Shown piece by piece: positions 9,347 to 23,310 of a stretch of 32,000 nucleotides of DNA. Made by a program: the position numbers and the translations under genes. The number at the start of each line of letters is the position of its first letter. Position 1 is the stretch's first letter. This DNA is from Pyrodictium abyssi. Lineage in GTDB: Archaea > Thermoproteota > Thermoprotei_A > Sulfolobales > Pyrodictiaceae. Location of the stretch: NCBI RefSeq assembly GCF_036323395.1, contig NZ_AP028907.1:180001-212000 (forward strand). Reading direction: 5' to 3'. The notes beneath the pieces were generated by a model that was given only the letters and a program-made list of their open reading frames with translations, was not told the origin of the DNA and did no database searches.

Positions 9347-9426
9347 TATTCGCTACAACCCTGTAGGGGAAACCAGGAGTGCCCTCGTGTCCTAGGGGGT
9401 TTCTCCCTTCTCGAGGAGAGGGAAAC
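9347..9426 (+). repeat. Hairpin elements H0 (degenerate, 9347-9373) and H1 (9399-9426)
   Basis: H0 is tattcgctacaaccctgtaggggaaac. H1 is GTTTCtcccttctcgaggagaggGAAAC (28 nt, near-perfect dyad centred on CTCGAG). Confidence 0.85.
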
Positions 9427-10167
9427 CTACTTCTTGCTCCATTGCACCTTGAGCACTGCTGACAGCTTGCCATAGTTCTTTGCCCGCTCGAGGACCTCAT
9501 TGTAGAACTCTGCATAGGATCGCCTTATCTTGGCGTACCTCTCATAGATTTGGTCGCCTTCACGGAAGAGCCAGAACTGTATTTTCTTTACTTCGCTGCT
9601 ATCCCAGTAGAACTTGCCGTCCTCCCGCTGCTTTCTCATGTAGACTTTTGCCTCACTCATCCACCCTCTTCTCTCATCATAGTGGACTTTCCAGACTCTG
9701 GCCTTGTAGCGGTAGACGTAGCCATTTTGTATTATGCCACGCGGCAAGTGCTTCTCGCTCGTCATAGTCATTATCATAAATCCTGTCCAGGTTCTCATAG
9801 TCTCGATATGTCCCATGATTGCAACGGAGAATGGATCGTAGGGATAGCGCTTGACTATCTCCATCCAGGGACCGGCATCATCCCATACAATTAGCGGATA
9901 TCGTATTCCTTCTTTTAGTGCTTGATCTACCTTTTCTTGAAGCTCCATTGGCGTAAATATCAGTAGTTCAAACACCTTATCCCAGTCTTGTAGAAGCTCA
10001 TGGGCTATCTTCAGAGCTAGCGTGGACTTACCGCTCCCCAGCGGCCCCTCTATTACCAGGAGGAACGCGTTTTGTTTCACTATTCCCTCAATGCAGAACT
10101 GACGTGCAAGCTTTCGCCTAACGTTTTGGCAGATGTGCTTAATCTCCCACATATAGGGGTCCCCCAT
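9427..10167 (-). CDS. P-loop NTPase (AAA-like; similar in size and layout to the DnaA-like ATPases of small crenarchaeal viruses)
   Basis: Walker A EGPLGSGKSTLAL and Walker B PLIVWDDAG; 246 aa. The family assignment beyond P-loop NTPase is from memory and not verified. Confidence 0.85.
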   Translation of the reverse strand: MGDPYMWEIKHICQNVRRKLARQFCIEGIVKQNAFLLVIEGPLGSGKSTLALKIAHELLQDWDKVFELLIFTPMELQEKVDQALKEGIRYPLIVWDDAGPWMEIVKRYPYDPFSVAIMGHIETMRTWTGFMIMTMTSEKHLPRGIIQNGYVYRYKARVWKVHYDERRGWMSEAKVYMRKQREDGKFYWDSSEVKKIQFWLFREGDQIYERYAKIRRSYAEFYNEVLERAKNYGKLSAVLKVQWSKK

Positions 10168-10178
10168 TATAAAGAGCC

Positions 10179-10577
10179 TTACCAGTTCTCTTCCTCTACC
10201 TTCTTCACTCTGGATAGCTGTACATTCTGTAGTATTCTCCAGGCTTTGCCAGCAACGATGGAGAGAATCTCCTTGACGCCGCTACGTTTCTTGGCCCTCT
10301 TGAGTATCAGGTAGTTGTAGATGAATCTCTTTAGCGTAGGATCCGGGATTGTGTCTGCTATAGTCTTCAGCATGGCTAAAGTGCGGATTTCTTTATCCGA
10401 AAGCTCGGATAATGTTATTACTGCCTTGCCTTTGGGCATCGCTAGCATCTTGACGGCTATCCTCTGTGCACCAAAGAGGTCCTTATCCTCTTCGAAGTCG
10501 AAGTCTTCATCGATTTCTATATCGAAGTCGAGGGGGTCCTCTTCCTCTGCTCTTTCTCTCCTCTTACGGGCCGGCAT
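10179..10577 (-). CDS. Hypothetical protein with a highly acidic N-terminus
   Basis: 132 aa (EEEDPLDFDIEIDEDFDFEEDKD...). Tightly packed between the membrane protein and the ATPase genes, with 4-nt and 11-nt gaps. Confidence 0.6.
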   Translation of the reverse strand: MPARKRRERAEEEDPLDFDIEIDEDFDFEEDKDLFGAQRIAVKMLAMPKGKAVITLSELSDKEIRTLAMLKTIADTIPDPTLKRFIYNYLILKRAKKRSGVKEILSIVAGKAWRILQNVQLSRVKKVEEENW

Positions 10578-10581
10578 AGTA

Positions 10582-11208
10582 TCACCTTGCAGGCGCTATG
10601 GATACGTGATAGCCTAGCATGGGTAGGATAAAGAACTCCATGATGAACGCGAGAGTCATTCCGACAAGTAGCATCACGATCTGCTCTCCCTTCGTGGGCT
10701 GTATCTTGCCGACAAGCTTCTCTATTGTTCTGCTCGCAAAGTAGTTCTTGAGCACTATCGGGTGTATCATTGACGGTCCTATCTTCGCTTTACGAAGCTC
10801 TTGCTGTATCTCTTCGTCGTCGGGATCTTCGAATTCATAGACTATGTTTCTGTCCGCATCAACTATGATTACCGGCTCTGCTCTCCTACAATTGCTGTCT
10901 TTGCAGAATATGTAAGGCTCCATAGGCGGTAGCTTGTAGAGTCTTGTAGGAGTTATCAGTTCTCCGCTAGCTGTTAGCTTGCCTATGGTTTTCATGAGGA
11001 TCTTGCCGTTTCTTAGGAGAACAGTTACTCTATCCCCCCGTGTCCGCTGGAACGTCTTTACCCTGTTCAGAGCTGCGTATGCTAGCCGCATGGTTTGGTC
11101 TATTCTGGCAGTAGTTGCTATGAAGAGAACGAGTGCGAAGAATGCTATAGTTATGAGCACGTAGAGGATGCTAAGCAAAGCATCTTGTGGCAGACTCACC
11201 GGGCTCAT
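10582..11208 (-). CDS. Hypothetical membrane protein (N- and C-terminal TM helices)
   Basis: 208 aa. TM segments LSILYVLITIAFFALVLFIATTA and IVMLLVGMTLAFIMEFFILPMLG. First gene of the minus-strand operon. Confidence 0.6.
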   Translation of the reverse strand: MSPVSLPQDALLSILYVLITIAFFALVLFIATTARIDQTMRLAYAALNRVKTFQRTRGDRVTVLLRNGKILMKTIGKLTASGELITPTRLYKLPPMEPYIFCKDSNCRRAEPVIIVDADRNIVYEFEDPDDEEIQQELRKAKIGPSMIHPIVLKNYFASRTIEKLVGKIQPTKGEQIVMLLVGMTLAFIMEFFILPMLGYHVSIAPAR

Positions 11209-11305
11209 TATAGCTCCCGTAGCTCTATTGATCGTCCCTTACCTTTTCTTCGCCCTTTCCAGCTTTCATAAGCTGATGCTAGCTCACAGTTGCTAAGTCG
11301 AGAAT

Positions 11306-11330
11306 GTTTCCCTAAAGATCTAGGGGAGAA
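11306..11330 (+). repeat. Degenerate hairpin element H2 abutting a start codon
   Basis: GTTTCcctaaagatctaggggaGAAt, with inner CCCTA/TAGGG arms as in H16. Its 3' end overlaps the first base of the ATG at 11330. Confidence 0.5.
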
Positions 11331-12079
11331 TGCGAGCAATAGCACCCATTGTTGCTGCTGCAATACTAGCACTCATAGCTGGTGCTGGCATTACTGCCTA
11401 TGTGCTTTCTCGGCCCGCAGCTGAGGCTCCTCTCGCAGCTATAGGTACTGCGAACATTATCGCAAGCGTGGAGACCAGGTATATTGTTGAATACATGGTG
11501 TTTGCGAGCGATAAGATAGATCTTAAGGTGTACTTGAACGGAACAGATGTTGCAGACATATTCATCCTGGTACCTACCTCGAGTTCAGAGTACATGGTTG
11601 TCTATAACAAGTACGACTATCAAAGCGGTACTCTACTTGAGTTGAACTATATGAAGGAGTTCATAGTTCTAGCCTGGAGAGATGGCTATGTAGATGCGAT
11701 AATCGTGGACATGGAGAACCCGGCACCCGGAGAGGTACGCCTTCACACGACACATCATCCCGATCCTATGAGCTTGACGCAATATGTGAAGGTTACAAAG
11801 CGCTGGTGGGACATTCTCTGGGAGGGTTTTGCGGTACTATTTGAAATGATGACTGCCATGAAGTTTGTAATAGATATTGTCGTGGCTATGCTGCCCTATG
11901 CCGGAGCTATGTGGTCTGTCTGGCTTGTCTCCGCCATTTCGAAAGCGCTTAGAGACATGAGCATTGAACCTCTGATAGACTTCTTCTATAAGAACTACCA
12001 AATAGTGAGAGGGATAGTATCGGCAGTTACGCAGATAGTGCTCAAGATAATAGACTTGATAACCGGGCCGGCAACATAA
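11330..12079 (+). CDS. Hypothetical membrane protein
   Basis: 249 aa. N-terminal TM (AIAPIVAAAILALIAGAGITAYVL), a central soluble domain and C-terminal hydrophobic helices. Confidence 0.65.
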   Translation: MRAIAPIVAAAILALIAGAGITAYVLSRPAAEAPLAAIGTANIIASVETRYIVEYMVFASDKIDLKVYLNGTDVADIFILVPTSSSEYMVVYNKYDYQSGTLLELNYMKEFIVLAWRDGYVDAIIVDMENPAPGEVRLHTTHHPDPMSLTQYVKVTKRWWDILWEGFAVLFEMMTAMKFVIDIVVAMLPYAGAMWSVWLVSAISKALRDMSIEPLIDFFYKNYQIVRGIVSAVTQIVLKIIDLITGPAT

Positions 12080-12083
12080 CGTT

Positions 12084-12175
12084 ATTTCGCCTACAGGATC
12101 TCTGATGAAATCTTGCTTTCTACATGATTTCGCTATCCTCGAGAAGGAGAAACATGTCAGACTGATACTCTGACA
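12084..12175 (+). repeat. Hairpin elements H3 (12084-12111) and H4 (12127-12153), plus palindrome P2 (12155-12175)
   Basis: H3 is ATTTCgcctacaggatctctgatGAAAT. H4 is ATTTCgctatcctcgagaaggaGAAAC. P2 is TGTCAGActgatacTCTGACA (perfect). They lie between convergent genes. Confidence 0.85.
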
Positions 12176-12195
12176 GTCTCTACGAAAAGAGGATA

Positions 12196-12300
12196 TCATG
12201 TAAGGATGTCTGCCACGAGCTTTGCAAGCCTGTAGCCCAAGTAGCCGGCAAATCCGGCAGCAAATGCGTAGATAACAACTTCAAAGGGCTCTAAGCTCAA
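12196..12300 (-). CDS. Possible 34-aa hydrophobic peptide
   Basis: Hand-found. A TTG at 12300 overlaps the end of the upstream ORF (12281-12589). Translation is (M)SLEPFEVVIYAFAAGFAGYLGYRLAKLVADILT plus a stop. The only support is TM-like composition and start/stop overlap. Confidence 0.2.
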   Translation of the reverse strand: MSLEPFEVVIYAFAAGFAGYLGYRLAKLVADILT

Positions 12301-12589
12301 CCTCCCGCACCTCCTCGAGCATTTGATTCCCTACTGCGATTCCCTTCTGCCTTAGTAATTCCATTAGTTTCCTTGCTCGAGGATCGTCCTCGGGCTCAAC
12401 CCATACTACTAGCCTGTATTCCTCTGGTGGATGTTCATCTTTTTCCACAAAGAGCCAGGCTGATAGCTTTATCATAAGCTGTGGCACGTTTCTACCTCTG
12501 AAAGTTCTCTGGGCAGCTATCGTTGAGCGTCTACGGTGTATTAAGGCAGCTCTTACGGTTATAGGAGGTGTGCGTGGCGGTCCTCCCAT
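12281..12589 (-). CDS. Hypothetical protein
   Basis: 102-aa ORF with a basic N-terminus and an acidic C-terminal half. No recognisable family. Confidence 0.5.
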   Translation of the reverse strand: MGGPPRTPPITVRAALIHRRRSTIAAQRTFRGRNVPQLMIKLSAWLFVEKDEHPPEEYRLVVWVEPEDDPRARKLMELLRQKGIAVGNQMLEEVREVELRAL

Positions 12590-12683
12590 TAATGTGTCCC
12601 TTTACTCCTGTTTAGAGCCCGGTAAGCCGTGTTAAGCTTGTCGAGCTAATGTAAGCTGGTTCTAGTTCGCGGCTCAAGTATAG

Positions 12684-12995
12684 TTGTTGTTGGAGTTAGA
12701 ACGCATGGAGATGGGTATGTCTTTTATGAAACGGGTGAAGGAGAAGCTAGCTAAAGTAGGTCAAGAGTTCAAGGCACGGGCTAAAGCGATAGCAGTAGCG
12801 ACCCTAGGCATAGGGACAACTTTGCTAACTAAGGTGGCGCACGCTCAGACAACCATAGATACCAGTAGCATGACGGAGATGATATCAGCATTCCTACCGA
12901 TAATAATGAGCTTATTCGCTATAATGATTCCGCTAATGTTCTTTGGTAAGATAATGGAGTTCTTTGAGAGGCTACTACGCAGCTTTGGCGGCTAA
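12684..12995 (+). CDS. Small two-TM membrane protein (candidate virion/envelope protein)
   Basis: The likely start is one of the ATGs at 12705-12726. It has a signal-like TM (AIAVATLGIGTTLLTKVAHA). Its C-terminal anchor MTEMISAFLPIIMSLFAIMIPLMFFGKIME is paralogous to the anchor of the next gene. Confidence 0.65.
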   Translation: MLLELERMEMGMSFMKRVKEKLAKVGQEFKARAKAIAVATLGIGTTLLTKVAHAQTTIDTSSMTEMISAFLPIIMSLFAIMIPLMFFGKIMEFFERLLRSFGG

Positions 12996-13000
12996 TATCG

Positions 13001-13693
13001 GTGATAAGTATGCTAAGGCGGCTACTAGCAGTCTTTTTGGTGGCTCTTATAGCATTCAGCACCGTAGCAGCGGCGCAGACAGAGGTGCTAGTTCCCAGCG
13101 ACGTTAGCGGTCCGATGTGGTGGGACTTCAATGCACAAACGCCTACGGTGATTAAGCTACTGCCGAACCTACCAGGACCAGCGCCTAATGCAAGCGACAA
13201 CCTGCGAATCGGCTTCGTAACACAGACAAAAGAGGCCGGCGGAACATACGAGGTCATAACAATCCGCTTCAAGATAAACGGCATGATGACTGTAGGCAGT
13301 CCTAGGTATGGTGTGCCGGACCAGGAAGTGGCCCAGTGGAGTAACAATGAGACTGTAAAGGTTGTCATATTTGGCAACACTATGGAGGTATATGTAGGCA
13401 GCACTAAGGTATGGAGCTATGAGGCGAGCGAAGAGATCCCGGACATAAACTACGTGTATGCGGATAGCGCTACATTCGGAGTGCCGGCATTCGAAGGCGG
13501 CGGATACATAAAGATATACGTGGATGAGGAGGAGCTAAACTCCATCCTAATAAACTATCAAATGCGGGAAAGCATGAACGCGACAATGGAGCTCTTCACA
13601 GCGTTTATGCCGCTGTTGATGGTATTCGCAATATTCGGAATGTTTATGAAGTTCATGGGCAAGATAATGAATACGTTGGGGAGAGCATTTTGA
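13001..13693 (+). CDS. Secreted protein with a C-terminal membrane anchor
   Basis: Signal peptide LLAVFLVALIAFSTVAAAQ, a beta-rich ectodomain of about 170 aa, and the anchor TMELFTAFMPLLMVFAIFGMFMKFMGKIMN. Confidence 0.7.
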   Translation: MISMLRRLLAVFLVALIAFSTVAAAQTEVLVPSDVSGPMWWDFNAQTPTVIKLLPNLPGPAPNASDNLRIGFVTQTKEAGGTYEVITIRFKINGMMTVGSPRYGVPDQEVAQWSNNETVKVVIFGNTMEVYVGSTKVWSYEASEEIPDINYVYADSATFGVPAFEGGGYIKIYVDEEELNSILINYQMRESMNATMELFTAFMPLLMVFAIFGMFMKFMGKIMNTLGRAF

Positions 13694-14742
13694 AACCCAT
13701 AGCTCTTTTTATAGCGGTTCTTCTCCCCCTAGGCCTAATCGTTACTGCGCATGCTGAGCAGAATCCTATAGTAGCTGTCTACTTCTACGCATGGTATGGT
13801 GAGGGATTAGGAGGGAGACATTGGAACGACTCAGCTTATACGCCCATCGTGGATGAGCCGCTGATAGGCTACTATAGCAGCCTAGACCCGGACACGATCG
13901 AGTGGCAGCTAAGGCTACTCAAGCAAGCAGGCATAGACGTACTCTTCATAAGCTGGTGGGGCCCCAATAGCTACGAAGATAGAGCAGCTAGACTGGTCTT
14001 CGAGAACCTGAAGCGCTTCGACCTGAAGGCCGCTATACTGGTCGAGCCCTATCTGGGAGGAGATCCTAGCCTCTACGACTACGAGTGGTGGCTTCAAGTA
14101 CTAGATTACATAAAGAAGAACTACATAGATAAGTATCCGAGCGTCTACTTCCGCTGGGAGGGCAAGCCGCTAGTACTAGCGTACAACCCCATAGGGATGA
14201 AGTGCCGACCAAACACAGACGAGTTCACGGTGAGGATAGTCGGCAACGACATAGACAATGCTGGCTACCAGGACTGGGACCTATGGCCAGACTACCTAGC
14301 CCCATGGACCACAGACAAGCCCATAGAGCTCAGAGTACGACAGGACGGCTACGTGGCCATAGCACCACGCTTCGACGACAGGGTATTCTGCGAGCTAGGC
14401 GTAAGGACTGGCTGTGATCAAAGGCTCTTGGATCCAAATTACACGCTTCAAGCCTACGTGAAACAATGGGAGTGGATACTTCAGCATAAGGATCAAGTAA
14501 GGCTCATAGCGATTTATAGTTGGAACGAATATCACGAGCGCAGCCAGATAGAGCCTCATTACGACGCAACAAAGCCGGAGCCGCTGGTTTACGATCCCTA
14601 TGCATTAACAAGAGCATACACCGAGAAACTGCGCGGTATCGAGTATAGTAAAGAGTACAAAGCTTTAGCCCAGGGTCTAGGACAGATAATGGGTGTTGCC
14701 TTCCTTGCAGGTGCGGCTGCGCAGTTTATCCGGCGGGCTTAG
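13690..14742 (+). CDS. GH99-like glycoside hydrolase (endo-alpha-mannosidase family), secreted and C-terminally anchored
   Basis: Signal peptide, then VYFYAWYG...HWN, IGYYSSLDPDTIEWQLRLLKQAGIDVLFISWWGP, LKAAILVEPY and IAIYSWNEYHERSQIE. From memory these parallel the human MANEA motifs FYYSWYG...HWN, LGSYSSRDPSVIETHMRQMRSASIGVLALSWYPP, HIEPY and ITSFNEWHEGTQIE. The TTG start overlaps the previous stop (TTGA). Confidence 0.8.
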   Translation: MKPIALFIAVLLPLGLIVTAHAEQNPIVAVYFYAWYGEGLGGRHWNDSAYTPIVDEPLIGYYSSLDPDTIEWQLRLLKQAGIDVLFISWWGPNSYEDRAARLVFENLKRFDLKAAILVEPYLGGDPSLYDYEWWLQVLDYIKKNYIDKYPSVYFRWEGKPLVLAYNPIGMKCRPNTDEFTVRIVGNDIDNAGYQDWDLWPDYLAPWTTDKPIELRVRQDGYVAIAPRFDDRVFCELGVRTGCDQRLLDPNYTLQAYVKQWEWILQHKDQVRLIAIYSWNEYHERSQIEPHYDATKPEPLVYDPYALTRAYTEKLRGIEYSKEYKALAQGLGQIMGVAFLAGAAAQFIRRA

Positions 14743-14768
14743 TTTCTCTCCTCGATCCCTGGCGAAAC
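14742..14768 (+). repeat. Hairpin element H5
   Basis: GTTTCtctcctcgatccctggcGAAAC (27 nt). It starts at the last base of the GH99-like stop codon. Confidence 0.8.
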
Positions 14769-14803
14769 ACCTTGCAGTCTCAGCTCTGATTCTCCATGCT
14801 GCC

Positions 14804-15028
14804 ATGGGGCTCTATCTGGCTTGTTTAGCAGCCATTTACGATTCTACTAATATGGGATTTGTTCTTCTCATAGCATACCCGGTGCTTACCGTTAGTCTCT
14901 GGATAACTAAGCCACATGCAATGTTAGCCTTCATGGTTCTAATTGCAGCTTCCCTAAGCTTTCTTAAGCTGTTATGGACTCGAAGGTATCATTTCAAGTT
15001 ATTTGTAAGGCGTATTCTAGGGGGCTAA
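14804..15028 (+). CDS. Small hydrophobic membrane protein
   Basis: The track ORF 14693-15028 overlaps the GH99 gene and H5. The internal ATG at 14804 gives a 74-aa protein with 2-3 TM segments (MGLYLACLAAIYDS...). Confidence 0.45.
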   Translation: MGLYLACLAAIYDSTNMGFVLLIAYPVLTVSLWITKPHAMLAFMVLIAASLSFLKLLWTRRYHFKLFVRRILGG

Positions 15029-15895: not shown

Positions 15896-15988
15896 GCTAT
15901 CGTGAGCTTTCTTCAGCTTCACTAAGCTCTCGGAGAATCTGGCTGTGGATAGCGTATTCCGCTACCTTTTCTCCACCCGCTGAGAGCC

Positions 15989-18040: not shown

Positions 18041-18058
18041 GCCCCTAGCTCTTTTTTC

Positions 18059-18107
18059 CTTTCCTCTTCTGCCTGTATGTGAAACTTGTCAGACTCTAGT
18101 TCTGACG
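18059..18107 (+). repeat. Degenerate hairpin H6 (18059-18085) plus palindrome P3 (18087-18107)
   Basis: H6 is cTTTCctcttctgcctgtatgtGAAAC. P3 is TGTCAGActctagtTCTGACg. Confidence 0.75.
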
Positions 18108-18191
18108 CTAGTTCTAAATCGGAATAAGAAGCAGAGGAGAAGCGGGCTCAGCGATTATCTCATCATTACCCGCTTTGCCCGGTGGCCCGCT

Positions 18192-19166
18192 ATGCCCCAG
18201 AGTAACACGTCTCGAAGAGATAGTAGAGAACCTAGCCCTGGTACTGCACAAGGACACTACCGGCCTAGCGAGCTCATTCTACGCTATATAGTTGAAGAGA
18301 AGGTCTCCTTCTTCCGGCTCGAGGAGATACGCTACTGGGCAAAGAAGCGCTACGGAGTAGACATAGACAGGAGGAGGCTCCATGATGCGGCAAAGAGGCT
18401 TACTGCTCGGGGCGTCTTCGAGAAGCCTTCGAGAGGCCTATATCATGTAAAAGACTGGGCAGCTGTCCACATGCTAGTTTCACTCTCCTCGAGAAAGAGA
18501 AACAATGAAGCCCTTGAGGGCCAAGAAGGGATTCACCTACAGGCTAGAGGTGAAAACGTCCTTGAGCCGCGTCAGAACATGAGTCGGACGGACGCGGGCG
18601 CGGCGGGGCGGGCTGGGCGGCGGGTGTCTGAGCGGTGTTCTGACAGGTTGCGGCGGTTTGTGCCTGTTCTCGCTACGGAGGAGGGGTGTTGGACGGTTCT
18701 TCGCTGGCATCTTAATGCGCGTCGGGAGAGGGTTTGGGACTGGCTGTGGGATCTCTTCGAGAGGGCGGTTGCTTTTCGGGAGCTATTCTCTTGGATTGTT
18801 AGATGGCTTAGGGAGGAGCTGCACCGTATGGGGGCGTCTAAGTACGAGATCCGGAGGCGGGTTAGGCGGGTTCTGCAGCGTGTTAGGAGGCTGCTTTCGA
18901 GGGTTAGGCCCGTGATTGGTGCTCATTATAGGAAGAGGTTCTGGCCCCTGGGGGATCTTCTCCGCTTGTTTGGTGCTGAGGAGAGGCTGCCCAGGATGGA
19001 GTTCGGGGTAGAGCTTTGGGCTTGCGGTGAGGGGGCGGTGGAGGCTGCGCGGGAGGGCTACGAGGTCTTTGGGAGCCAGGACGTGTATACTCCGAACGCA
19101 TACAAGCATAATACTCCGGAGCATGCTCAGTATAGGCTGCGGCTGCGTTATCATCCTAGGCACTAG
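18192..19166 (+). CDS. Hypothetical protein: N-terminal winged-helix-like domain plus an Arg/Trp-rich C-terminal half
   Basis: 324 aa. LILRYIVEEKVSFFRLEEIRYWAKKRYGVDIDRRRLHDAAKRLTARGVFEKPSRGLYHV looks like a wHTH. Composition changes sharply after about 18590. Contains hairpin H7 in frame. Confidence 0.65.
   Translation: MPQSNTSRRDSREPSPGTAQGHYRPSELILRYIVEEKVSFFRLEEIRYWAKKRYGVDIDRRRLHDAAKRLTARGVFEKPSRGLYHVKDWAAVHMLVSLSSRKRNNEALEGQEGIHLQARGENVLEPRQNMSRTDAGAAGRAGRRVSERCSDRLRRFVPVLATEEGCWTVLRWHLNARRERVWDWLWDLFERAVAFRELFSWIVRWLREELHRMGASKYEIRRRVRRVLQRVRRLLSRVRPVIGAHYRKRFWPLGDLLRLFGAEERLPRMEFGVELWACGEGAVEAAREGYEVFGSQDVYTPNAYKHNTPEHAQYRLRLRYHPRH
18477..18503 (+). repeat. Hairpin element H7 (intragenic)
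   Basis: GTTTCactctcctcgagaaagaGAAAC (27 nt), in frame within 18192-19166, where it encodes VSLSSRKRN. Confidence 0.75.
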
Positions 19167-19167
19167 G

Positions 19168-19260
19168 ATTTCGCTTCTTAGCCTGTATGCGAAACGCTAG
19201 GGGACGCTAGGTTTCTCCTGTCGACAACACTGCGAAATCTGTCAGAGCGGGGCTCTGACA
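19168..19260 (+). repeat. Hairpin elements H8 (19168-19195) and H9 (19211-19238), plus palindrome P4 (19240-19260)
   Basis: H8 is ATTTCgcttcttagcctgtatgcGAAAC. H9 is GTTTCtcctgtcgacaacactgcGAAAT. P4 is TGTCAGAgcggggcTCTGACA (perfect). Confidence 0.85.
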
Positions 19261-19326
19261 AGGTAAGTGGATTAGCTTCGCTTTGCACCGGCTTACGGTT
19301 TAGTAGCTGTTATTCGGTCATCGGGC

Positions 19327-20457
19327 TTGTCAGAGTTGGGCTCTGACGCTGGTTTTGTAGCCTTCGAGGGGCAAATAGGAAGGTGGGTGCTCTTTGTGGA
19401 GGGGAGGGTTAAGGTTGCTAGGCTGGTGGAGATAGACGGTAGGCCCTACGTAGTGATAGACGGCGCGTTGATCCCCATTGAGGTTTCGCCCGGGAGCTCG
19501 CAGGCGAAACAGGAGAGGCCGGAGCTTCGCTTTGAGCTGAGTGAAGAGGTCCTCGAGCGCTACCGTAGGTGGCTTCCCAGCGAGCAACGAAGTTACCGAG
19601 CCAGGGACCCGGAAACCATAGAGAAGTATATCAGCTATTTAAAGAAGTTCTATGAGTGCAGTAATGGGGTTATATCGCCTGAGACGATTATGAAGTGTGT
19701 TACGAATAAGCACTATGTGAGGGCGTTAAGAGCGTTCGTGGAGATGTTGAGGTACTATGGAGAGGTGTCGCGGCACCTGGCTCTTGAGATCCTTGAGAGG
19801 CTTAGGTGGAGCCGGAATGATAGGATTGGCGAGGATATTGTTCCGGTTTCCCGGGTGCTCGAGAGCATAGCATTCGTCGAGGAGGAAGGGCTTCCGCTGT
19901 ACCAGCTGCTCTATAGGGCTATGCTCTATAGTGGCGGTATCCGGCTGGAGCAGTTCTTCGAGCTAGTGCCCTACGAGGATCATTACTGGCTGTGGAGGGG
20001 AGCGGAGCCCCGGCCCTTTGGCAGGTATAACGCTGTTAAGGCTCTCGAGGACCGTGGGGTAGCCTCGAAGCCTGTGGACCATATATGGCTGCCTGAGGAG
20101 GTTTACCGGGGGCTTAGGGGGCTTGATCCTGATTTCCTTCCGAAGCCGGGAGCGGCTAGGAAGTTCTATAGCCGGCATAAGCTGGTAGGCCCGACATTGA
20201 TTCGTAGCTTCTGCTGGCAAGTTGCGAAGTTTCTCCTGCCCGACAAGAATCTTGCTAGGATGCTGCAGGGGAGGCTTGGAGAGCTTAAGCGCGAGGTATC
20301 CGCGGGGAGCTATGACGCGCTCCGTTATCAGCTCGATCAGCTATACCCGCTTTGGATGCGCTTCGTGGACAGGCTCTACGAGGCGGCCAGGCGTGGTAAG
20401 CCTCTCGAGGAGGCGCGGAGGATAGTCGCTGAGTACCGCTTGCCCCTCCCACCTTAG
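19327..20457 (+). CDS. int: Tyrosine recombinase (integrase), intact
   Basis: 376 aa. Core-binding-like helices (IEKYISYLKKFYE..., ALRAFVEMLRYYG). Candidate catalytic residues are LYSGGIRLEQ (Arg I), TLIRSFCWQ (Arg II), MLQGRLG and SAGSYDAL (Tyr). The exact start is uncertain: TTG 19327 lies inside palindrome P5. Confidence 0.85.
   Translation: MSELGSDAGFVAFEGQIGRWVLFVEGRVKVARLVEIDGRPYVVIDGALIPIEVSPGSSQAKQERPELRFELSEEVLERYRRWLPSEQRSYRARDPETIEKYISYLKKFYECSNGVISPETIMKCVTNKHYVRALRAFVEMLRYYGEVSRHLALEILERLRWSRNDRIGEDIVPVSRVLESIAFVEEEGLPLYQLLYRAMLYSGGIRLEQFFELVPYEDHYWLWRGAEPRPFGRYNAVKALEDRGVASKPVDHIWLPEEVYRGLRGLDPDFLPKPGAARKFYSRHKLVGPTLIRSFCWQVAKFLLPDKNLARMLQGRLGELKREVSAGSYDALRYQLDQLYPLWMRFVDRLYEAARRGKPLEEARRIVAEYRLPLPP
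19328..19348. promoter_or_regulatory. Palindrome P5 overlapping the annotated integrase start
   Basis: TGTCAGAgttgggcTCTGACg. Same family as P1-P4, positioned at the 5' end of int. Confidence 0.6.
19483..19510 (+). repeat. Hairpin element H10 (intragenic, in int)
   Basis: GTTTCGCCcgggagctcgcaGGCGAAAC (28 nt, 8-bp perfect arms, central GAGCTC), in frame, encoding VSPGSSQAKQ. Confidence 0.8.
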
Positions 20458-20459
20458 CG

Positions 20460-20487
20460 GTTTCGCCTAGGAGCTCGTTGGTGAAAC
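20460..20487 (+). repeat. Hairpin element H11
   Basis: GTTTCgcctaggagctcgttggtGAAAC (28 nt). It starts 3 nt after the integrase stop. Confidence 0.85.
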
Positions 20488-20494
20488 TGGGGCT

Positions 20495-20575
20495 GGGCCG
20501 CGGGGATGATGAGTACGGCAGGATCGGATCCGTGAAGAGCGGACTTAACGCTGACCCTCCCGGGACCCGCGGCCC
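20495..20575 (+). ncRNA. Dual-guide C/D box sRNA candidate (core 20506-20554)
   Basis: C box ATGATGA (20506-12), 12-nt guide gtacggcaggat, D' cgga, 3-nt linker, C' gtgaaga (20532-38), 12-nt guide gcggacttaacg, D box CTGA (20551-54). This is the canonical archaeal 7-12-4-3-7-12-4 layout. A perfect 9-bp outer helix (gggccgcgg 20495-503 with ccgcggccc 20567-75) encloses it. Both guides are complementary to conserved 16S rRNA segments (see findings). Confidence 0.6.
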
Positions 20576-20753
20576 TCTGGTTTACCCTACTCTATACTAA
20601 GAGGTATATGGGTTGCGCCCGGCTATACTATAGTGTACTCGAGGGCCCGGCTGCCCCTCTCGACGGGTCGGGGACCCGGGGTGAAGGGATGAGCCGGCCC
20701 GGGAGGCGGGGATTGTCGTGAACCGCCTCCTTCAATGCTCTGACACTCCTAGG

Positions 20754-20876
20754 GTTTCCCCTTCTCGATCCCTGGGGAAACCGGGCCCTGGCGGGGGGTT
20801 TCGCCTTCCTCGAGGAGGGTGAAACCGGCCCTTCCCCTGGAGGGTAGGGTTTCGCTTACAGGCCTGTATGTGAAAT
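20754..20876 (+). repeat. Hairpin elements H12 (20754-20781), H13 (20798-20825) and H14 (20849-20876)
   Basis: H12 is GTTTCcccttctcgatccctgggGAAAC. H13 is GTTTCgccttcctcgaggagggtGAAAC. H14 is GTTTCgcttacaggcctgtatgtGAAAT. A TCTGACA half-site lies at 20739-20745. Confidence 0.85.
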
Positions 20877-20920
20877 AGTGTCGGCTTCCTCTTTCTGTCC
20901 ACCAAAAACAATAAGTAGGT

Positions 20921-20932
20921 GTAACTAGTTAC
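20921..20932. promoter_or_regulatory. Perfect 12-bp palindrome GTAACTAGTTAC upstream of the small-gene operon (candidate operator)
   Basis: It lies between an A-rich TATA-like stretch (aaaaacaataag, about 20904-20915) and the GTG/ATG starts at 20949/20958. Confidence 0.4.
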
Positions 20933-20948
20933 GACTACTTGGCTGCGG

Positions 20949-21269
20949 GTGTGGGGTATGGGGAGTCTACGGGAGGCTCTCATCTTCCTCGCAAATAAGC
21001 CTCAAGCGCTACGTCTTCTCCGCGAGGCTGCGAGGTACAAGGCTTCAAAGGGTAAGCCGCCGTACACTAGAGAGCTTCTCAAGCTGGCAGCCAACGGGGA
21101 CCGCGGCTACAGTATGCGGCTGCTAGAGGAGCTGCAGGCGCTGGGGCTTCTGCGGCGCTACCGGGATTATCTTAGCGATAAGCTGCGCATACCTGTTGTC
21201 CGCAACGATCCCACACCTTTGGCTCACAAGGTTCTAGCACTCTTCGAGGAGGAGGATGAAAATGCCTAG
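20949..21269 (+). CDS. Winged-helix DNA-binding protein
   Basis: 106 aa (GTG 20949 or ATG 20958). TRELLKLAANGDRGYSMRLLEELQALGLLRR looks like an HTH plus wing. Acidic tail. Confidence 0.65.
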   Translation: MWGMGSLREALIFLANKPQALRLLREAARYKASKGKPPYTRELLKLAANGDRGYSMRLLEELQALGLLRRYRDYLSDKLRIPVVRNDPTPLAHKVLALFEEEDENA

Positions 21270-21708
21270 GCCTCCACGGCTTGATAAGGTAATAGCGTTT
21301 GCCCATAAGCTGGCTAGCGATCTTGAGGTAGGGTATCGGGAGCTTGCCGGGATTCGTGGGGAGCTTCTGCGCGTCTCTGAGCTTCTGCGGGATGTCGAGG
21401 TTCTGGAGGCTAGTGTGATCGAGAAGAGTAGGAATGGCTCGGTGTACAGGGTTCTGCAGGTGAAGAGGCCTGGGACGGGCTTTTTCGAGGGAGGCGTGCT
21501 GTCTGTCTATGTTACCCGTAAGCCCGAGCTTGGCGATCTTGTAGTGAGGCTTGTTCATCTCCGTAATGTCTATGCTGAGTGGGTTAAGGCTACTATTAGC
21601 TTGCTTGACGCGTTGGAGAGGACTCCTAGCTTGCTTGAGGAATACAAGCGGCTTGTTTCTCCTACAGGATCTCCGGCGAAACAGGAGGTGAGGGCTCGTG
21701 GATCCTAG
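21256..21708 (+). CDS. Hypothetical protein
   Basis: 150 aa. The start overlaps the previous gene by 14 nt. Contains H15 in frame near its 3' end. Confidence 0.6.
   Translation: MKMPRPPRLDKVIAFAHKLASDLEVGYRELAGIRGELLRVSELLRDVEVLEASVIEKSRNGSVYRVLQVKRPGTGFFEGGVLSVYVTRKPELGDLVVRLVHLRNVYAEWVKATISLLDALERTPSLLEEYKRLVSPTGSPAKQEVRARGS
21655..21682 (+). repeat. Hairpin element H15 (intragenic)
   Basis: GTTTCtcctacaggatctccggcGAAAC (28 nt), in frame, encoding VSPTGSPAKQ, and followed by aggagg. Confidence 0.8.
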
Positions 21709-21847
21709 GGAGCTTGCGGAGATTGAGCAGGAGCTGAGAGAGGCTCGAGAGTTCTTCGCAGAGCGGGGGTACTGGCTCATGGTCTGGTACATAGACGATA
21801 CACTGAGGCTAATAGAGAGGATGAAGGAGGGGAGGAGTAATGGCTCT
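21698..21847 (+). CDS. Possible 49-aa ORF
   Basis: Hand-found. GTG 21698 overlaps the preceding stop region. Translation is VDPRELAEIEQELREAREFFAERGYWLMVWYIDDTLRLIERMKEGRSNGS. Its stop overlaps the RHH gene start (ATG 21840). Support comes only from operon packing. Confidence 0.25.
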
Positions 21848-22049
21848 TAGAACGATCACCGTTAAGCTCGATGACGAGATTGTATCTCTTCTCGACGACA
21901 TCTATAGGAAGCTTGGCTACAATTACCGCAGCGATGTAATAAGAGAAGCACTGGAGGATTGGCTGCGGCGGCATGGATTCAAGGTTAACCTCAGCGTTTC
22001 TCGACCAAGGCATAATGATAGAGGTCTAGTGTTTGAGGTGGAGGTGTAG
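21840..22049 (+). CDS. Ribbon-helix-helix (CopG/Arc/MetJ-type) transcriptional regulator
   Basis: MALRTITVKLDDEIVSLLDDIYRKLGYNYRSDVIREALEDWLRRHG has the classic beta-strand, helix, helix pattern. Confidence 0.8.
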   Translation: MALRTITVKLDDEIVSLLDDIYRKLGYNYRSDVIREALEDWLRRHGFKVNLSVSRPRHNDRGLVFEVEV

Positions 22050-22052
22050 ACC

Positions 22053-22313
22053 ATGACCAGGCTATATCTCTGCGGGTGCTGGCTCGAGGTTAAGGACTGC
22101 AGCTTGCACAAGGCATTGCTGAGGAGTCTTGCCGACATCTACGAGCATGACGTGCTACTCATGGAGGGTGCGCCGGTCTCCATCGACTGTAGGCGGCTGG
22201 CCGCGGACTTCGAAGAGTTCCTGCACGACTATGGTGCCCGGCACTGCCGCGTCGAGCCCGTCGATCCGGCTGAGTGGCGCCGCCCCGAGGAGACGCTACT
22301 TCCGACATTCTAG
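22053..22313 (+). CDS. Hypothetical Cys-containing protein
   Basis: 86 aa. Starts 3 nt after the RHH stop. No family recognised. Confidence 0.55.
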   Translation: MTRLYLCGCWLEVKDCSLHKALLRSLADIYEHDVLLMEGAPVSIDCRRLAADFEEFLHDYGARHCRVEPVDPAEWRRPEETLLPTF

Positions 22314-22326
22314 GGGGTGGGTGGCT

Positions 22327-22755
22327 ATGCCGGTCTTCCTTCTAGCTAATGGCCGCCGGGTTACGCTCTCGAGGGCCCTAGTAGAGCGGGTTGTTACTAC
22401 GAGGCTCTCTAACTGCTTCTCTCCGCAGTGCTACATGTCGAAGGAGGAGTACCTAGCGTGCATAGAGTGGATCACAGGGAGGAGAAGCGAGGCTCCAGGG
22501 CACGCGCGTACATGCATCTACCACATGCTGTTCTACAGCGAGAACCTGGTTCTAACAAACTACATGTTCTTGAGGTCGCTGCGCGACCCAGCGGCGCCAG
22601 AGTACCTAGACTCTATGCTGAGGCTACTCGAGGAGATACGCCGACTAGCAGAGGAGGCCTATCAGCACCTAGCAGCTAGCCGCTATAGCGAGGCTCAGAG
22701 ACTGGCCATCGAGATTCTAGACAAGCTCCTAAGATGGGGAATAGACCCATGGTAG
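22327..22755 (+). CDS. Hypothetical protein
   Basis: The track ORF 22129-22755 overlaps the previous gene out of frame. The internal ATG at 22327 (MPVFLLANGRR...) gives 142 aa with a helical C-terminus. Confidence 0.6.
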   Translation: MPVFLLANGRRVTLSRALVERVVTTRLSNCFSPQCYMSKEEYLACIEWITGRRSEAPGHARTCIYHMLFYSENLVLTNYMFLRSLRDPAAPEYLDSMLRLLEEIRRLAEEAYQHLAASRYSEAQRLAIEILDKLLRWGIDPW

Positions 22756-22758
22756 GGG

Positions 22759-23019
22759 GTGTCTTGCATGTCGGCTGACTGCCGCCGTTGCCGGTTCTTT
22801 ATCCCCCTTGAGAGGATGGATCATGATAGCATAGTGAGGGCTGAGAAGTGGCTTCAATGGATGCAGAAGAACGGGAAGAGGCAGGGTCATAGGATCCTGG
22901 GATGGTGCGGTAGGTATGAGAGGCCGGTAACCTACTATGTTGGCCGCTGCACGGGCTTCTCCCCCTATGCCGATAGACCGGCGGTGAAGAGTATACTCGA
23001 CTATCTTCGGGGCAGCTAG
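22759..23019 (+). CDS. Small Cys-rich (putative zinc-binding) protein
   Basis: 86 aa with CRRC...GWCGRYERPVTYYVGRC. GTG start 3 nt after the previous stop. Confidence 0.55.
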   Translation: MSCMSADCRRCRFFIPLERMDHDSIVRAEKWLQWMQKNGKRQGHRILGWCGRYERPVTYYVGRCTGFSPYADRPAVKSILDYLRGS

Positions 23020-23040
23020 CTCTTTCTTATTAAGAGGAGG

Positions 23041-23127
23041 TGTCAGAGTTCTACTCCGGCATCTTGTTTCTCCCTAGATCCTGTAGGGGAAACTCTCGGG
23101 TTTCTCCCTTCTCGAGGAGGGTGAAAC
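23041..23127 (+). repeat. Degenerate palindrome P6 (23041-23061), plus hairpins H16 (23066-23093) and H17 (23100-23127)
   Basis: P6 is TGTCAGAgttctacTCcGgCA. H16 is GTTTCtccctagatcctgtagggGAAAC. H17 is GTTTCtcccttctcgaggagggtGAAAC. Confidence 0.85.
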
Positions 23128-23132
23128 GCTGC

Positions 23133-23300: not shown

Positions 23301-23310
23301 ACTCTCACGG

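What the first reader, a model, noticed from the sequence alone, without database searches (positions are those of the whole stretch)
9347..23127. Element-specific family of 27-28 nt GTTTC-N17/18-GAAAC hairpin elements (15 canonical and 3 degenerate copies)
The canonical copies have [G/A]TTTC and GAAA[C/T] termini separated by 17-18 nt. They are at 9399-9426, 12084-12111, 12127-12153, 14742-14768, 18477-18503, 19168-19195, 19211-19238, 19483-19510, 20460-20487, 20754-20781, 20798-20825, 20849-20876, 21655-21682, 23066-23093 and 23100-23127. Degenerate copies are at 9347-9373, 11306-11330 and 18059-18085. A back-of-envelope expectation for this pattern in 14.5 kb of random sequence with equal base frequencies is about 0.1. 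My visual scan found none in the roughly 17.5 kb of host flanks. The interiors differ and fall into subtypes: tcccttCTCGAGgagg, ctcgatccctgg, agcctgtatg and cctgtaggg. Many copies nevertheless stay self-complementary, for example 20798-20825, 23100-23127, 19483-19510 and 20849-20876, which looks like compensatory change around a conserved stem base. Non-Watson-Crick positions in the stems are mostly G-T on the plus strand, about 11 versus 2 C-A by hand count including the second palindrome family. This weakly favours a plus-sense RNA hairpin over a pure DNA site. Most copies sit directly after stop codons or between genes, and often in pairs or triplets. My inference is that they are intercistronic RNA punctuation (termination, processing, stability or a protein-binding hairpin), or alternatively DNA operators or recombination hot spots. 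Their length and GTTTC...GAAAC termini also resemble CRISPR repeats, raising the speculative possibility of Cas6 or repeat-binding-protein decoys.
Basis: partly seen in the sequence, partly recalled or inferred. Interest (0 to 1): 0.85.

Follow-up and report, generated by a model that had tools for sequence, protein, structure and literature searches.

The report
Virus-specific 28-bp mirrored DNA sites
A provirus in the archaeon Pyrodictium abyssi carries about 19 copies of a 27-29 bp mirror-symmetric motif (GTTTCnC...GnGAAAC), shared only with its closest uncultured relatives, and the copies look like binding sites for a paired DNA-binding protein at gene boundaries rather than RNA hairpins or CRISPR-like repeats.

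Summary
All 15 RTTTC-N17/18-GAAAY copies sit at the stated coordinates. None lies in the 17.5 kb of host flanks, and about 0.05 are expected by chance. The element is a 14.5-kb provirus integrated at tRNA-Glu in Pyrodictium abyssi and is distantly related to Aeropyrum virus APOV1.

The motif family, together with a second palindrome (GTCAGA-N7-TCTGAC), occurs in every close relative I could fetch: six metagenomic contigs and one chromosomal remnant. It is absent from APOV1 and three other more distant relatives.

The hairpin reading is not supported:
- Only TTTC, C7 and their mirror positions are conserved.
- The two halves of a copy pair no better than halves taken from different copies.
- There is no strand bias. 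G.T versus A.C mismatches are 38 versus 32, and 22 versus 20 copies fold better on the plus or minus strand.
- Asymmetric subtypes occur in both orientations.
- Most copies are predicted not to fold at 95 C.

The best reading is a set of dispersed, dyad-symmetric double-stranded DNA sites for a virus-encoded dimeric binder, working like stoperators at transcription-unit boundaries (confidence about 0.4). The rivals are RNA 3'-end hairpins, REP-like selfish palindromes and Xer/pdif-like exchange sites. Cas6 mimicry has no support. The novelty is moderate, and the function is untested.

The parts
8877..8931 (+). attL: 3' part of host tRNA-Glu(CTC), the left copy of the 55-nt direct repeat that bounds the provirus
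   Evidence: tRNA at 8850-8927. The same 55 nt recur at 23392-23446.
23392..23446 (+). attR: right copy of the 55-nt repeat
9347..9373 (.). Degenerate copy (TATTC...GAAAC), 2 nt after a GTCAGA-N7-TCTGAC palindrome
   Evidence: Sequence. The same arrangement is conserved in L130. It scores below the weight-matrix threshold.
9399..9426 (.). 28-mer, CTCGAG type, lying between convergent genes. Its sequence is identical to L130 6475-6502.
11306..11330 (.). Doubtful degenerate copy that lacks the right terminus
   Evidence: Sequence. Not recovered by the weight matrix.
12084..12111 (.). 28-mer, CAGGATCT type, 4 nt after a stop codon
12127..12153 (.). 27-mer, CTCGAG type, 2 nt before the palindrome at 12156-12174
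14742..14768 (.). 27-mer, GGGATCGAG type in reverse orientation. Its first G is the last base of the stop codon.
18059..18085 (.). 27-mer with a CTTTC end. It lies after the T-tract that follows the 683-aa gene and 2 nt before the palindrome at 18088. The site is absent at this locus in L136, and L129 carries a different type there.
18477..18503 (.). 27-mer inside the linker of the winged-helix protein gene, in frame (VSLSSRKRN). Present in L129 and L136; falls in a 36-nt gap in L130.
18530..18556 (.). The ortholog is recognisable in L129, L130 and L140.
19168..19195 (.). 28-mer, 1 nt after a stop codon. It forms a pair with the next copy at a 43-bp centre-to-centre distance, and the pair is conserved in L129 and L130.
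19211..19238 (.). 28-mer, GTCGAC type, 2 nt before the palindrome at 19241
19483..19510 (.). 28-mer inside the integrase gene linker, in frame (VSPGSSQAK). A copy sits at the same position in L130, L134, L136 and L137, each with a different interior type.
20460..20487 (.). 28-mer, GAGCTC type, 2 nt after the integrase stop codon
20754..20781 (.). 28-mer, first of a triplet
20798..20825 (.). 28-mer, CTCGAG type, the best self-complementary copy (-17.4 kcal/mol at 37 C)
20849..20876 (.). 28-mer, AGGCCT type, third of the triplet
21655..21682 (.). 28-mer inside the C-terminal end of the 150-aa gene, in frame (VSPTGSPAK). Orthologous copies in L134, L136 and L137 are also in frame 1.
23066..23093 (.). 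28-mer, CAGGATCT type in reverse orientation, 5 nt after the degenerate palindrome at 23042
23100..23127 (.). 28-mer, CTCGAG type
9326..9344 (.). Companion palindrome GTCAGA-N7-TCTGAC. Further copies lie at 12156-12174, 18088-18106, 19241-19259 and 19329-19347, with degenerate copies at 18571, 18626 and 23042.
   Evidence: The family is conserved in all relatives that carry the 28-mers.
20949..22049 (+). Gene block p106, p150, a 50-aa ORF and a ribbon-helix-helix protein. These are candidate binders by co-occurrence only (inferred).
   Evidence: Homologs of p106 and p150 are found in the four motif-bearing contigs that cover this region. The block and the motif are both missing from L138. RHH_1 domain, E = 7.6e-7.
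18273..19166 (+). Winged-helix protein whose disordered linker holds two copies of the motif and two degenerate companion palindromes
   Evidence: AlphaFold model: residues 1-70 form a winged helix at pLDDT about 85, and residues 74-155 score below 50. Alignment.

Best explanation
The copies are dyad-symmetric sites on double-stranded DNA. Each consists of two inverted half-sites, (G)TTTCnC(Y), whose centres lie about 20 bp apart, roughly two helical turns. I infer that they are bound by a dimeric or dimer-of-dimers DNA-binding protein encoded by this virus lineage. Together with the adjacent 19-bp GTCAGA-N7-TCTGAC operators they fill most of the short intergenic space. On this reading they mark the boundaries of transcription units, so that a bound protein silences or insulates units across the whole provirus, much as the dispersed 'stoperators' of mycobacteriophage L5 do. 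What is shown: the pattern of conservation, the independence of the two half-sites, the indifference to orientation, the restriction to one lineage, and the tight interleaving with the second palindrome. What is inferred: that a protein binds the sites, which protein it is, and the effect on transcription.
For: - Only positions 2-5 (TTTC) and 7 (C), with their mirror positions, carry information. Positions 8-13 carry almost none.
- A left half matches its own right half no better than the right halves of other copies (positions 9-13: 81 matches versus 67.7 +/- 9, p = 0.08). Pairing is 72.2% against 71.3% in shuffles, and the covariation score is reached by 86 of 500 shuffles.
- There is no strand asymmetry in mismatches or in folding energy.
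- Asymmetric interior types occur in both orientations relative to the genes: T2 2+/3-, T3 5+/5-, T6 3+/2-.
- Position 6 and its mirror are genome-specific: nearly always C/G in L134 and L137, and variable in the window. This fits co-evolution between a site and its binder.
- The companion palindrome behaves the same way: GTCAGA/GTCTGA variants appear on either arm without compensation.
- In at least ten places a 28-mer sits 2-10 nt from a companion palindrome.
- The family is present in all close relatives and gives zero hits in 62 kb of more distant relatives. One of those, L138, has its own TTGTACCC..GGGTACAA palindromes at equivalent places.
- The element encodes several small DNA-binding proteins (RHH, an AbrB/MazE-type protein, a winged-helix protein). 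The p106/p150/RHH block co-occurs with the sites.
- 15 of 19 copies are intergenic.
Against: - No binding data exist, and the binder is not identified. The p106 model has low confidence (pLDDT 62).
- Length varies from 26 to 29 bp, including 1-nt indels between orthologs, so a rigid dimer would not fit every copy.
- Real copies are slightly more self-complementary than chimeras of their halves (-8.3 versus -7.5 kcal/mol, p = 0.02). One measure, cells changed on both sides, exceeds all but one shuffle (1 of 500).
- At the locus after the integrase stop codon, L136 and L134 keep a GAGCTC-centred hairpin although the GTTTC/GAAAC ends are lost.
- The interiors fall into recurring types rather than drifting freely, which a binder that reads only the outer 7-8 bp does not explain.
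- Starting immediately after the stop codon is more typical of RNA 3'-end elements.
- L5 stoperators are asymmetric and orientation-dependent, unlike these sites.
Confidence: 0.4

Rival explanations
1. RNA hairpins in plus-sense transcripts that stabilise or define mRNA 3' ends, or act as processing or protein-binding sites.
For: - Many copies start 1-4 nt after a stop codon or overlap it.
- Several copies are good hairpins at 37 C, from -10 to -17 kcal/mol.
- Real copies are marginally more stable than chimeras of their halves (p = 0.02).
- A hairpin persists without the conserved termini after the integrase stop codon in L136 and L134.
Against: - There is no excess pairing over shuffles.
- Neither strand folds better overall (22 versus 20 copies, p = 0.37).
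- G.T and A.C mismatches are balanced (38 versus 32).
- Both orientations occur.
- About a third of the window's copies pair only through the 5-bp AU-rich terminus.
- Only 2 of 16 copies are predicted to fold at 95 C. Pyrodictium grows near 100 C (my own knowledge).
- Where T-tract terminators are seen, they precede the 28-mer rather than follow it.
- No Rfam family matches.
Confidence: 0.15
2. Selfish, REP- or RPE-like miniature palindromic elements that spread and are homogenised within this virus lineage, tolerated in intergenic DNA and in disordered protein linkers.
For: - Copies are present or absent at the same locus in close relatives. The locus after the 683-aa gene has a copy in the window and L129 but none in L136. 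The copy at 18477 lies in a 36-nt gap in L130.
- Copies lie in frame in three protein linkers.
- The family shows discrete types, both orientations and clusters.
- It covers about 27-35% of the intergenic DNA in the right arm.
- Genome-specific consensus at position 6 suggests concerted evolution.
Against: - No transposase or HUH/RAYT-type enzyme appears among 20 ORFs scanned with Pfam, 10 of them also with PHROGs.
- No target-site duplications are visible.
- No copies lie in 17.5 kb of host flank, which argues against mobilisation by a host enzyme.
- Most positions are orthologous across genomes that are 71-81% identical at protein level.
- The most conserved part is the termini plus the spacing, not the whole unit.
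Confidence: 0.15
3. Recombination sites with a 28-bp, 11-6-11 geometry like Xer/dif or plasmid pdif sites, or homology patches like the promoter stem-loops of T4-type phages. Co-infecting viruses would exchange gene modules and site halves at these points.
For: - The 28-bp length with palindromic 6-bp centres (CTCGAG, GAGCTC, AGGCCT) matches the archaeal dif layout described in PMC4640148.
- Many copies look like chimeras of half-types, and the type differs between genomes at the same locus.
- Homology breakpoints between genomes lie within 10 nt of a copy in 11 of 20 cases (p about 2e-6 against the whole region).
- A roughly 390-bp insert carrying an sRNA-like gene is bracketed by copies in the window and missing in L130.
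- The right end of a chromosomal remnant (L139) falls about where the in-gene copy sits in the integrase.
Against: - Breakpoint enrichment is not significant against an intergenic-only null (p = 0.08).
- The conserved part is the outer 7-8 bp, whereas in dif the inner arms are conserved. There is no sequence similarity to the archaeal dif consensus.
- Length varies from 26 to 29 bp.
- The integrase's real att site (tRNA-Glu anticodon arm to 3' end) contains no GTTTC/GAAAC.
- The L130 indel is not a clean site-to-site deletion.
Confidence: 0.15
4. CRISPR-repeat mimics that act as decoys for Cas6 or another repeat-binding protein.
For: The only support is the length and the GTTTC...GAAAC ends, which resemble many class 1 repeats (my own knowledge).
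Against: - The interiors differ between copies, gaps between neighbours are 6-25 nt, and both orientations occur.
- No Rfam CRISPR-DR family matches at E <= 10.
- Some copies lie inside genes.
- The host's own repeat could not be retrieved.
Confidence: 0.03

Closest known systems
Stoperators of mycobacteriophage L5 and other Cluster A phages: dispersed repressor sites that block transcription in the prophage (my own knowledge)
   Same: Both have tens of copies of one short motif spread over a temperate virus genome, sitting in short intergenic spaces often just after genes. In both, the consensus is specific to a lineage and appears to change together with the virus.
   Different: L5 stoperators are 13-bp, asymmetric, oriented with transcription and bound by a monomeric repressor. 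The sites here are 27-29 bp, symmetric, found in either orientation and paired with a second palindrome. Binding is untested here, and the host is an archaeon.
REP/BIME elements of bacteria and Rickettsia palindromic elements (my own knowledge)
   Same: All are short imperfect palindromes found after stop codons, in clusters and in both orientations. Like the Rickettsia elements, some of these copies lie in frame within protein-coding genes.
   Different: The copies here sit in a 14.5-kb virus, not in the host chromosome. There is no GTAG-type tetranucleotide and no RAYT transposase. They are much shorter than Rickettsia elements. Their stems are not conserved as structures.
Xer/dif sites and pdif modules of Acinetobacter plasmids. 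The archaeal dif layout is given in PMC4640148.
   Same: Both are 28 bp with inverted arms around a 6-bp centre. pdif sites also occur in many copies per replicon, flanking small gene modules.
   Different: Here the outer rather than the inner arm positions are conserved. The length varies. There is no similarity to the archaeal dif consensus WTKDSMTATAA-N6-TTATATSHMAA. No link to a recombinase has been shown.
Promoter-early stem-loops of T4-type phages, which act as mobile regulatory cassettes at gene-module borders (my own knowledge)
   Same: Both are repeated regulatory palindromes at the borders of variable gene modules in a hyperplastic region of a virus genome.
   Different: The sequence, host domain and transcription machinery all differ. 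No promoter function has been shown here.
APOV1 (Betaguttavirus), the nearest described virus
   Same: The left arm is syntenic with APOV1 orf9-orf19. The largest protein is 55% identical.
   Different: APOV1 has no copy of either palindrome family. The right arm, which holds 13 of the 19 copies, has no APOV1 homologs.

Membership tests
CRISPR repeat or virus-borne mini-array | Near-identical direct repeats in one orientation | tested here: not met
   The interiors differ and fall into at least seven types. Both orientations occur.
CRISPR repeat or virus-borne mini-array | Regular unique spacers of about 25-50 nt between repeats | tested here: not met
   Neighbouring copies are 6-25 nt apart, or kilobases apart.
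CRISPR repeat or virus-borne mini-array | Similarity to a known repeat family or to the host's own repeat | tested here: inconclusive
   No Rfam CRISPR-DR match at E <= 10.
Structured RNA hairpin (terminator, stabiliser or processing site) | Base pairs maintained by covariation | tested here: not met
   Pairing is 72.2% against 71.3% in shuffles, and the covariation score is reached by 86 of 500 shuffles. Pairs 8-12 are unpaired in 43-67% of copies (13-20 of 30). There are no compensatory changes between orthologs.
Structured RNA hairpin (terminator, stabiliser or processing site) | Preference for the transcribed strand (G.U tolerated, A.C not; fixed orientation) | tested here: not met
   G.T 38 versus A.C 32. 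The plus strand folds better in 22 copies and the minus strand in 20. Both orientations occur.
Structured RNA hairpin (terminator, stabiliser or processing site) | Stability at the host's growth temperature | tested here: not met
   2 of 16 copies have a predicted energy below -1 kcal/mol at 95 C. This extrapolates the energy parameters and ignores any stabilisation by proteins or salts.
REP/BIME elements | Imperfect palindromes of 20-40 nt, extragenic and clustered | tested here: met
REP/BIME elements | Many copies across the host chromosome | tested here: not met
   No canonical copy lies in 17.5 kb of flank, with one borderline weight-matrix hit. The whole genome was not scanned.
REP/BIME elements | A cognate RAYT (HUH, IS200/IS605-like) transposase and a conserved tetranucleotide at the foot of the hairpin | tested here: not met
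   No such domain appears among 20 ORFs scanned with Pfam, 10 of them also with PHROGs. There is no conserved flanking tetranucleotide.
Xer/dif or pdif recombination site | 28 bp made of 11-bp inverted arms and a 6-bp centre of fixed length | tested here: inconclusive
   Most copies are 28 bp and can be read as 11-6-11. However, 26-, 27- and 29-bp copies are common, and orthologs differ by 1-nt indels.
Xer/dif or pdif recombination site | Conserved recombinase-binding arms next to the centre, and similarity to the dif consensus | tested here: not met
   The inner arm positions 8-11 are the variable ones. There is no resemblance to the Thermococcales dif consensus.
Xer/dif or pdif recombination site | Cleavage and strand exchange by a tyrosine recombinase | not testable with these tools
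   The element's SSV-type integrase uses a tRNA-Glu att site that lacks the motif.
Stoperator-type dispersed repressor sites | Many copies of one motif in short intergenic spaces of a temperate virus | tested here: met
   19 copies, of which 15 are intergenic (p = 5e-10). The element is an integrated provirus.
Stoperator-type dispersed repressor sites | Asymmetric site with a fixed orientation relative to transcription | tested here: not met
   The sites are symmetric, and the asymmetric interiors occur in both orientations.
Stoperator-type dispersed repressor sites | Bound by the virus repressor, with a block to transcription | not testable with these tools
   This needs EMSA, ChIP and transcript mapping.
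Integron attC | RYYYAAC...GTTRRRY core sites, 57-141 bp, and an IntI integrase | tested here: not met
   The termini are GTTTC...GAAAC, the opposite arrangement. The length is 27-29 bp. There is no IntI.

The most novel reading that the evidence does not exclude
The 28-mers, with their companion 19-bp palindromes, are the joints of a cassette system in hyperthermophilic archaeal viruses. A protein that recognises GTTTCnC ends would promote exchange at these sites. Gene modules, and even the site interiors, would then be swapped between co-infecting genomes. That would explain the type switching at orthologous positions, the chimeric halves, and the insert bracketed by sites that carries a virus-encoded C/D-box sRNA.
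Probability: 0.15. Interest if true: 0.75.

Novelty: new variant of a known kind. Interest (0 to 1): 0.5.

Why it matters
Almost nothing is known about how viruses of Pyrodictium and related hyperthermophiles control or organise their genomes. A lineage-specific pair of DNA motifs fills much of the non-coding DNA, reaches into protein linkers and is conserved across vent metagenomes. That gives a concrete, testable handle in three ways. It points to a specific protein-DNA recognition system to look for. It would be a possible archaeal counterpart of genome-wide prophage silencing by dispersed operators; I know of no archaeal example, and I did not search the literature for one. It also offers a simple signature for finding this virus group in metagenomes. 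If the sites prove to be exchange points instead, they would be a new route for modular evolution of archaeal viruses.

Tried and rejected
- **Megablast against the phage collection.** The whole element and the triplet region gave no match. Only a protein search reached APOV1.
- **Exact-protein look-ups.** Look-ups of a 433-aa ORF in the right host flank, a 313-aa ORF in the left flank and the 683-aa ORF failed, probably because of start-codon choice or because the stop codon was included.
- **IMG/VR scans.** Two protein scans and three DNA-pattern scans returned only chance or unrelated hits.
- **Genome collection.** The protein scan found nothing, not even APOV1 in A. pernix. As a result I could scan neither the whole P. 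abyssi genome nor its CRISPR arrays.
- **JGI metagenome scans.** The protein scan found nothing. The composite 28-mer-plus-palindrome pattern gave six single chance hits.
- **Covariance model.** MAFFT misaligned copies of mixed length, so I did not build one. I used a half-site weight matrix instead and an ungapped alignment of 28-nt copies for pair counting.
- **Origin-recognition-box idea.** I could not retrieve a consensus to compare, so I dropped it.
- **Rep-Arvir rolling-circle initiator idea** (PMC13107129). No DUF7845 or other Pfam hit was found for the winged-helix protein.
- **Structure predictions.** p106 gave pLDDT 62 and the C-terminal half of the winged-helix protein gave below 50. 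Both were too poor for fold searches. Sequence searches of solved structures gave only designed helical proteins.
- **Helical phasing of neighbouring sites.** Centre distances of 34, 42-44, 51-54 and 59 bp are suggestive but not conclusive.

Full report
**The observation**

None falls outside 9399-23127. Two thousand first-order Markov simulations of the element give a mean of 0.047 matches and never more than 2. The flanks (17,541 bp) contain none. It leaves 9347-9373 and 11306-11330 below threshold. It also gives one borderline hit in the host flank at 23870-23898, where about 0.2 would be expected by chance. The family is real and far above chance.

**Context**

The copies lie in a provirus bounded by a 55-nt direct repeat: the 3' part of tRNA-Glu(CTC) at 8877-8931 recurs at 23392-23446. 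The host is Pyrodictium abyssi, because the 683-aa protein is 100% identical to a protein on a 2.22-Mb P. abyssi contig.

[quoted passage not shown] Its largest protein is 55% identical, and the left arm (9427-18040) is syntenic with APOV1 orf9-orf19. The right arm (18040-23400), which holds 13 of the 19 copies, has no APOV1 homologs. The right arm encodes:
- a winged-helix protein,
- an intact SSV-type integrase,
- a ribbon-helix-helix protein,
- an AbrB/MazE-type protein,
- several small proteins of unknown function.

**Distribution in relatives**

APOV1 has no copy of the motif. Protein homology led to six metagenomic contigs from separate samples: L129, L130, L134, L136, L137 and L140. Their proteins are 60-90% identical to those of the window, and every one carries the motif at 1-2 copies per kb. 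A chromosomal remnant (L139) carries it too. All of them also carry a second palindrome, GTCAGA-N7-TCTGAC, usually 2-10 nt from a 28-mer.

More distant relatives give zero hits in 62 kb: L131 and L132 (about 60% identity in the large protein), L138 (integrase 53-57% identical) and APOV1. L138 instead has its own palindromes, TTGTACCC..GGGTACAA, around its integrase. Pattern scans of IMG/VR and of the held JGI metagenomes gave only chance hits. The two motifs are therefore a shared trait of one narrow virus clade, not a host repeat.

**What is conserved**

Over 45 copies, TTTC at positions 2-5 and its mirror GAAA are fixed by the search pattern used to collect the copies. Beyond those, C at position 7 and its mirror G are present in 43-44 of 45. 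Position 1 is mostly G, and positions 8-13 carry almost no information. Position 6 and its mirror are genome-specific: nearly always C/G in L134 and L137, and variable in the window. Length is mostly 28 bp, with 26-, 27- and 29-bp copies. Orthologs in the window and L136 differ by single-base indels.

**Tests of the hairpin idea**

- With ungapped mirror pairing, left halves match their own right halves at positions 9-13 no better than the right halves of other copies (81 versus 67.7 +/- 9 matches, p = 0.08).
- On an ungapped alignment of 30 28-nt copies, 72.2% of cells pair against 71.3 +/- 1.5% after shuffling. The covariation score is reached by 86 of 500 shuffles. Pairs 8-12 are unpaired in 43-67% of copies (13-20 of 30). 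One measure, cells changed on both sides, does exceed the shuffles (1 of 500), but the tool warns that relatedness alone can cause this.
- Folding energies of real copies are only slightly better than those of chimeras made from the halves of different copies (-8.3 versus -7.5 kcal/mol, p = 0.02).
- The plus strand folds better in 22 copies and the minus strand in 20 (Wilcoxon p = 0.37).
- Asymmetric interior types occur in both orientations relative to the genes: T2 2+/3-, T3 5+/5-, T6 3+/2-.
- Orthologous copies in the window and L136 differ by substitutions that break pairs rather than compensate for them.
- At 95 C only 2 of 16 window copies are predicted to fold. Pyrodictium grows near 100 C (my own knowledge).
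- No Rfam family, including the CRISPR-DR families, matches the copies at E <= 10.

One locus points the other way. After the integrase stop codon, L136 and L134 keep a GAGCTC-centred hairpin although the GTTTC/GAAAC ends have decayed.

**Position and turnover**

Fifteen of 19 copies are intergenic in an element that is 86% coding (p = 5e-10). In the right arm, copies plus a 3-10-nt margin cover 27-35% of the intergenic DNA. Several start 1-4 nt after a stop codon or share its last base.

Three loci lie inside genes and are conserved in position across genomes:
- the disordered linker of the winged-helix protein,
- the linker after the first ~52 residues of the integrase,
- the C-terminal end of a 150-aa protein.

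At all three the copy is read in the same frame, as V/F-S-...-K/N. At the integrase locus the five genomes carry five different interior types, and each of those types recurs elsewhere in these genomes.

Copies also come and go at the same locus. After the 683-aa gene, the window and L129 have different types, L130 has an unrelated small palindrome, and L136 has nothing between the T-tract and the GTCAGA palindrome. The copy at 18477 falls in a 36-nt gap in L130.

Homology breakpoints between genomes lie within 10 nt of a copy in 11 of 20 cases (p about 2e-6 against the whole region). Against an intergenic-only null this is not significant (p = 0.08).

**Interpretation**

The following all point to a dyad-symmetric site on double-stranded DNA read by a dimeric protein, rather than to an RNA structure:
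- two short mirrored half-sites about two helical turns apart,
- independent halves,
- no strand or orientation preference,
- a lineage-specific and partly genome-specific consensus,
- tight interleaving with a second palindrome that behaves the same way.

The element encodes several small DNA-binding proteins. The p106/p150/RHH block is found in the motif-bearing contigs that cover that region, and it is absent, along with both motifs, from L138. That is co-occurrence, not proof.

By analogy with the dispersed stoperators of mycobacteriophage L5 (my own knowledge), I propose that the sites let a viral protein silence or insulate transcription units across the provirus. I put this at about 0.4. 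It does not explain why the interiors fall into recurring types, or why the types switch at orthologous loci. Those features suggest gene conversion or exchange among copies and keep the REP-like and recombination-site readings alive at about 0.15 each. The RNA-hairpin reading keeps about 0.15 because of the stop-codon adjacency and the one locus where the structure outlasts the termini. CRISPR mimicry has no positive evidence.

**Comparison with known systems**

- The sites fail the tested defining features of CRISPR repeats, covarying RNA hairpins, RAYT-mobilised REPs, dif/pdif sites and integron attC sites (see the membership table). The archaeal dif layout is taken from PMC4640148.
- They share the distribution pattern of stoperators but not their asymmetry.
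- I found no description of such motifs in the papers on APOV1, AGV1 or Guttaviridae that the library holds.

**Limits**

The relatives are short metagenomic contigs. Orthologous copies are not independent observations, so the permutation p-values are approximate. No binding, transcript or recombination data exist.

**Verdict**

This is a real, clade-specific family of 27-29-bp dyad-symmetric sites. The most likely role is protein binding on DNA at the borders of transcription units. The finding is moderately novel and moderately interesting.

Noticed in passing
window 20502-20557 (+); L136 5543-5591: Candidate virus-encoded C/D-box sRNA. Seven archaeal C/D families match at the same spot; the best is snoPyro_CD at 28.9 bits (gathering score 45, E = 0.013). 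A C box ATGATGA and a D box CTGA are present. The 49-nt core is 100% identical in L136, although the surrounding region is about 71% identical.
   Followed up: partly
window 9326-9344, 12156-12174, 18088-18106, 19241-19259, 19329-19347 (degenerate copies at 18571, 18626, 23042): A second palindrome family, GTCAGA-N7-TCTGAC, is conserved in all motif-bearing relatives and usually lies 2-10 nt from a 28-mer. One copy overlaps the integrase start. GTCAGA/GTCTGA variants occur without compensation, as expected for an operator on double-stranded DNA.
   Followed up: partly
L138 about 2200, 3130, 4330 and 4690: A more distant integrated relative (integrase 53-57% identical, next to a tRNA-Asp-like sequence) lacks both motif families. 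It has its own TTGTACCC-N-GGGTACAA palindromes at comparable places around the winged-helix and integrase genes.
   Followed up: partly
L139 9794-11229 versus L140 1099-2534: A 1.4-kb fragment 100% identical to a viral contig sits in a 1.37-Mb archaeal chromosome contig. It carries the winged-helix gene and five copies of the motif. Its right end is the N-terminal part of the integrase, fused in frame to a host LUD-domain gene. The junction lies about where the in-gene 28-mer sits in the window's integrase.
   Followed up: partly
window 18651-19166: The C-terminal half of the winged-helix protein is 92-94% identical in L129, L130 and L136, while neighbouring proteins in the same contigs are mostly about 50-80% identical. 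The structure model for this half has low confidence, and nothing similar is found among solved structures.
   Followed up: partly
window 19327-20457: The integrase belongs to the SSV type (the UniRef name, plus PF16795 in distant homologs). It is nevertheless intact inside the provirus: the att site lies between two AbrB-like genes, not inside the integrase gene.
   Followed up: no
window 23370-23430: The viral side of attR matches the tRNA model beyond the 55-nt direct repeat (30.2 bits, model positions 7-64). The virus therefore carries a longer tRNA-like stretch than the repeat itself.
   Followed up: no
window 23870-23898: One borderline motif-like sequence (GTTTCGCCCTGTTCTAGTATGCGTGAAGC, 29 nt) lies about 420 nt outside attR in host DNA. 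Its score is just above threshold, so it is probably chance.
   Followed up: no
L018, L019, L026, L035, L048, L050, L083 (uncultured Bacteroides and Mediterranea) and others: The tandem pattern GTTTC-N17/18-GAAAC, short gap, GTTTC-N18-GAAAC occurs on many contigs of some gut Bacteroidales genomes, often with the same 61-nt span. This looks like an unrelated bacterial repeat family.
   Followed up: no
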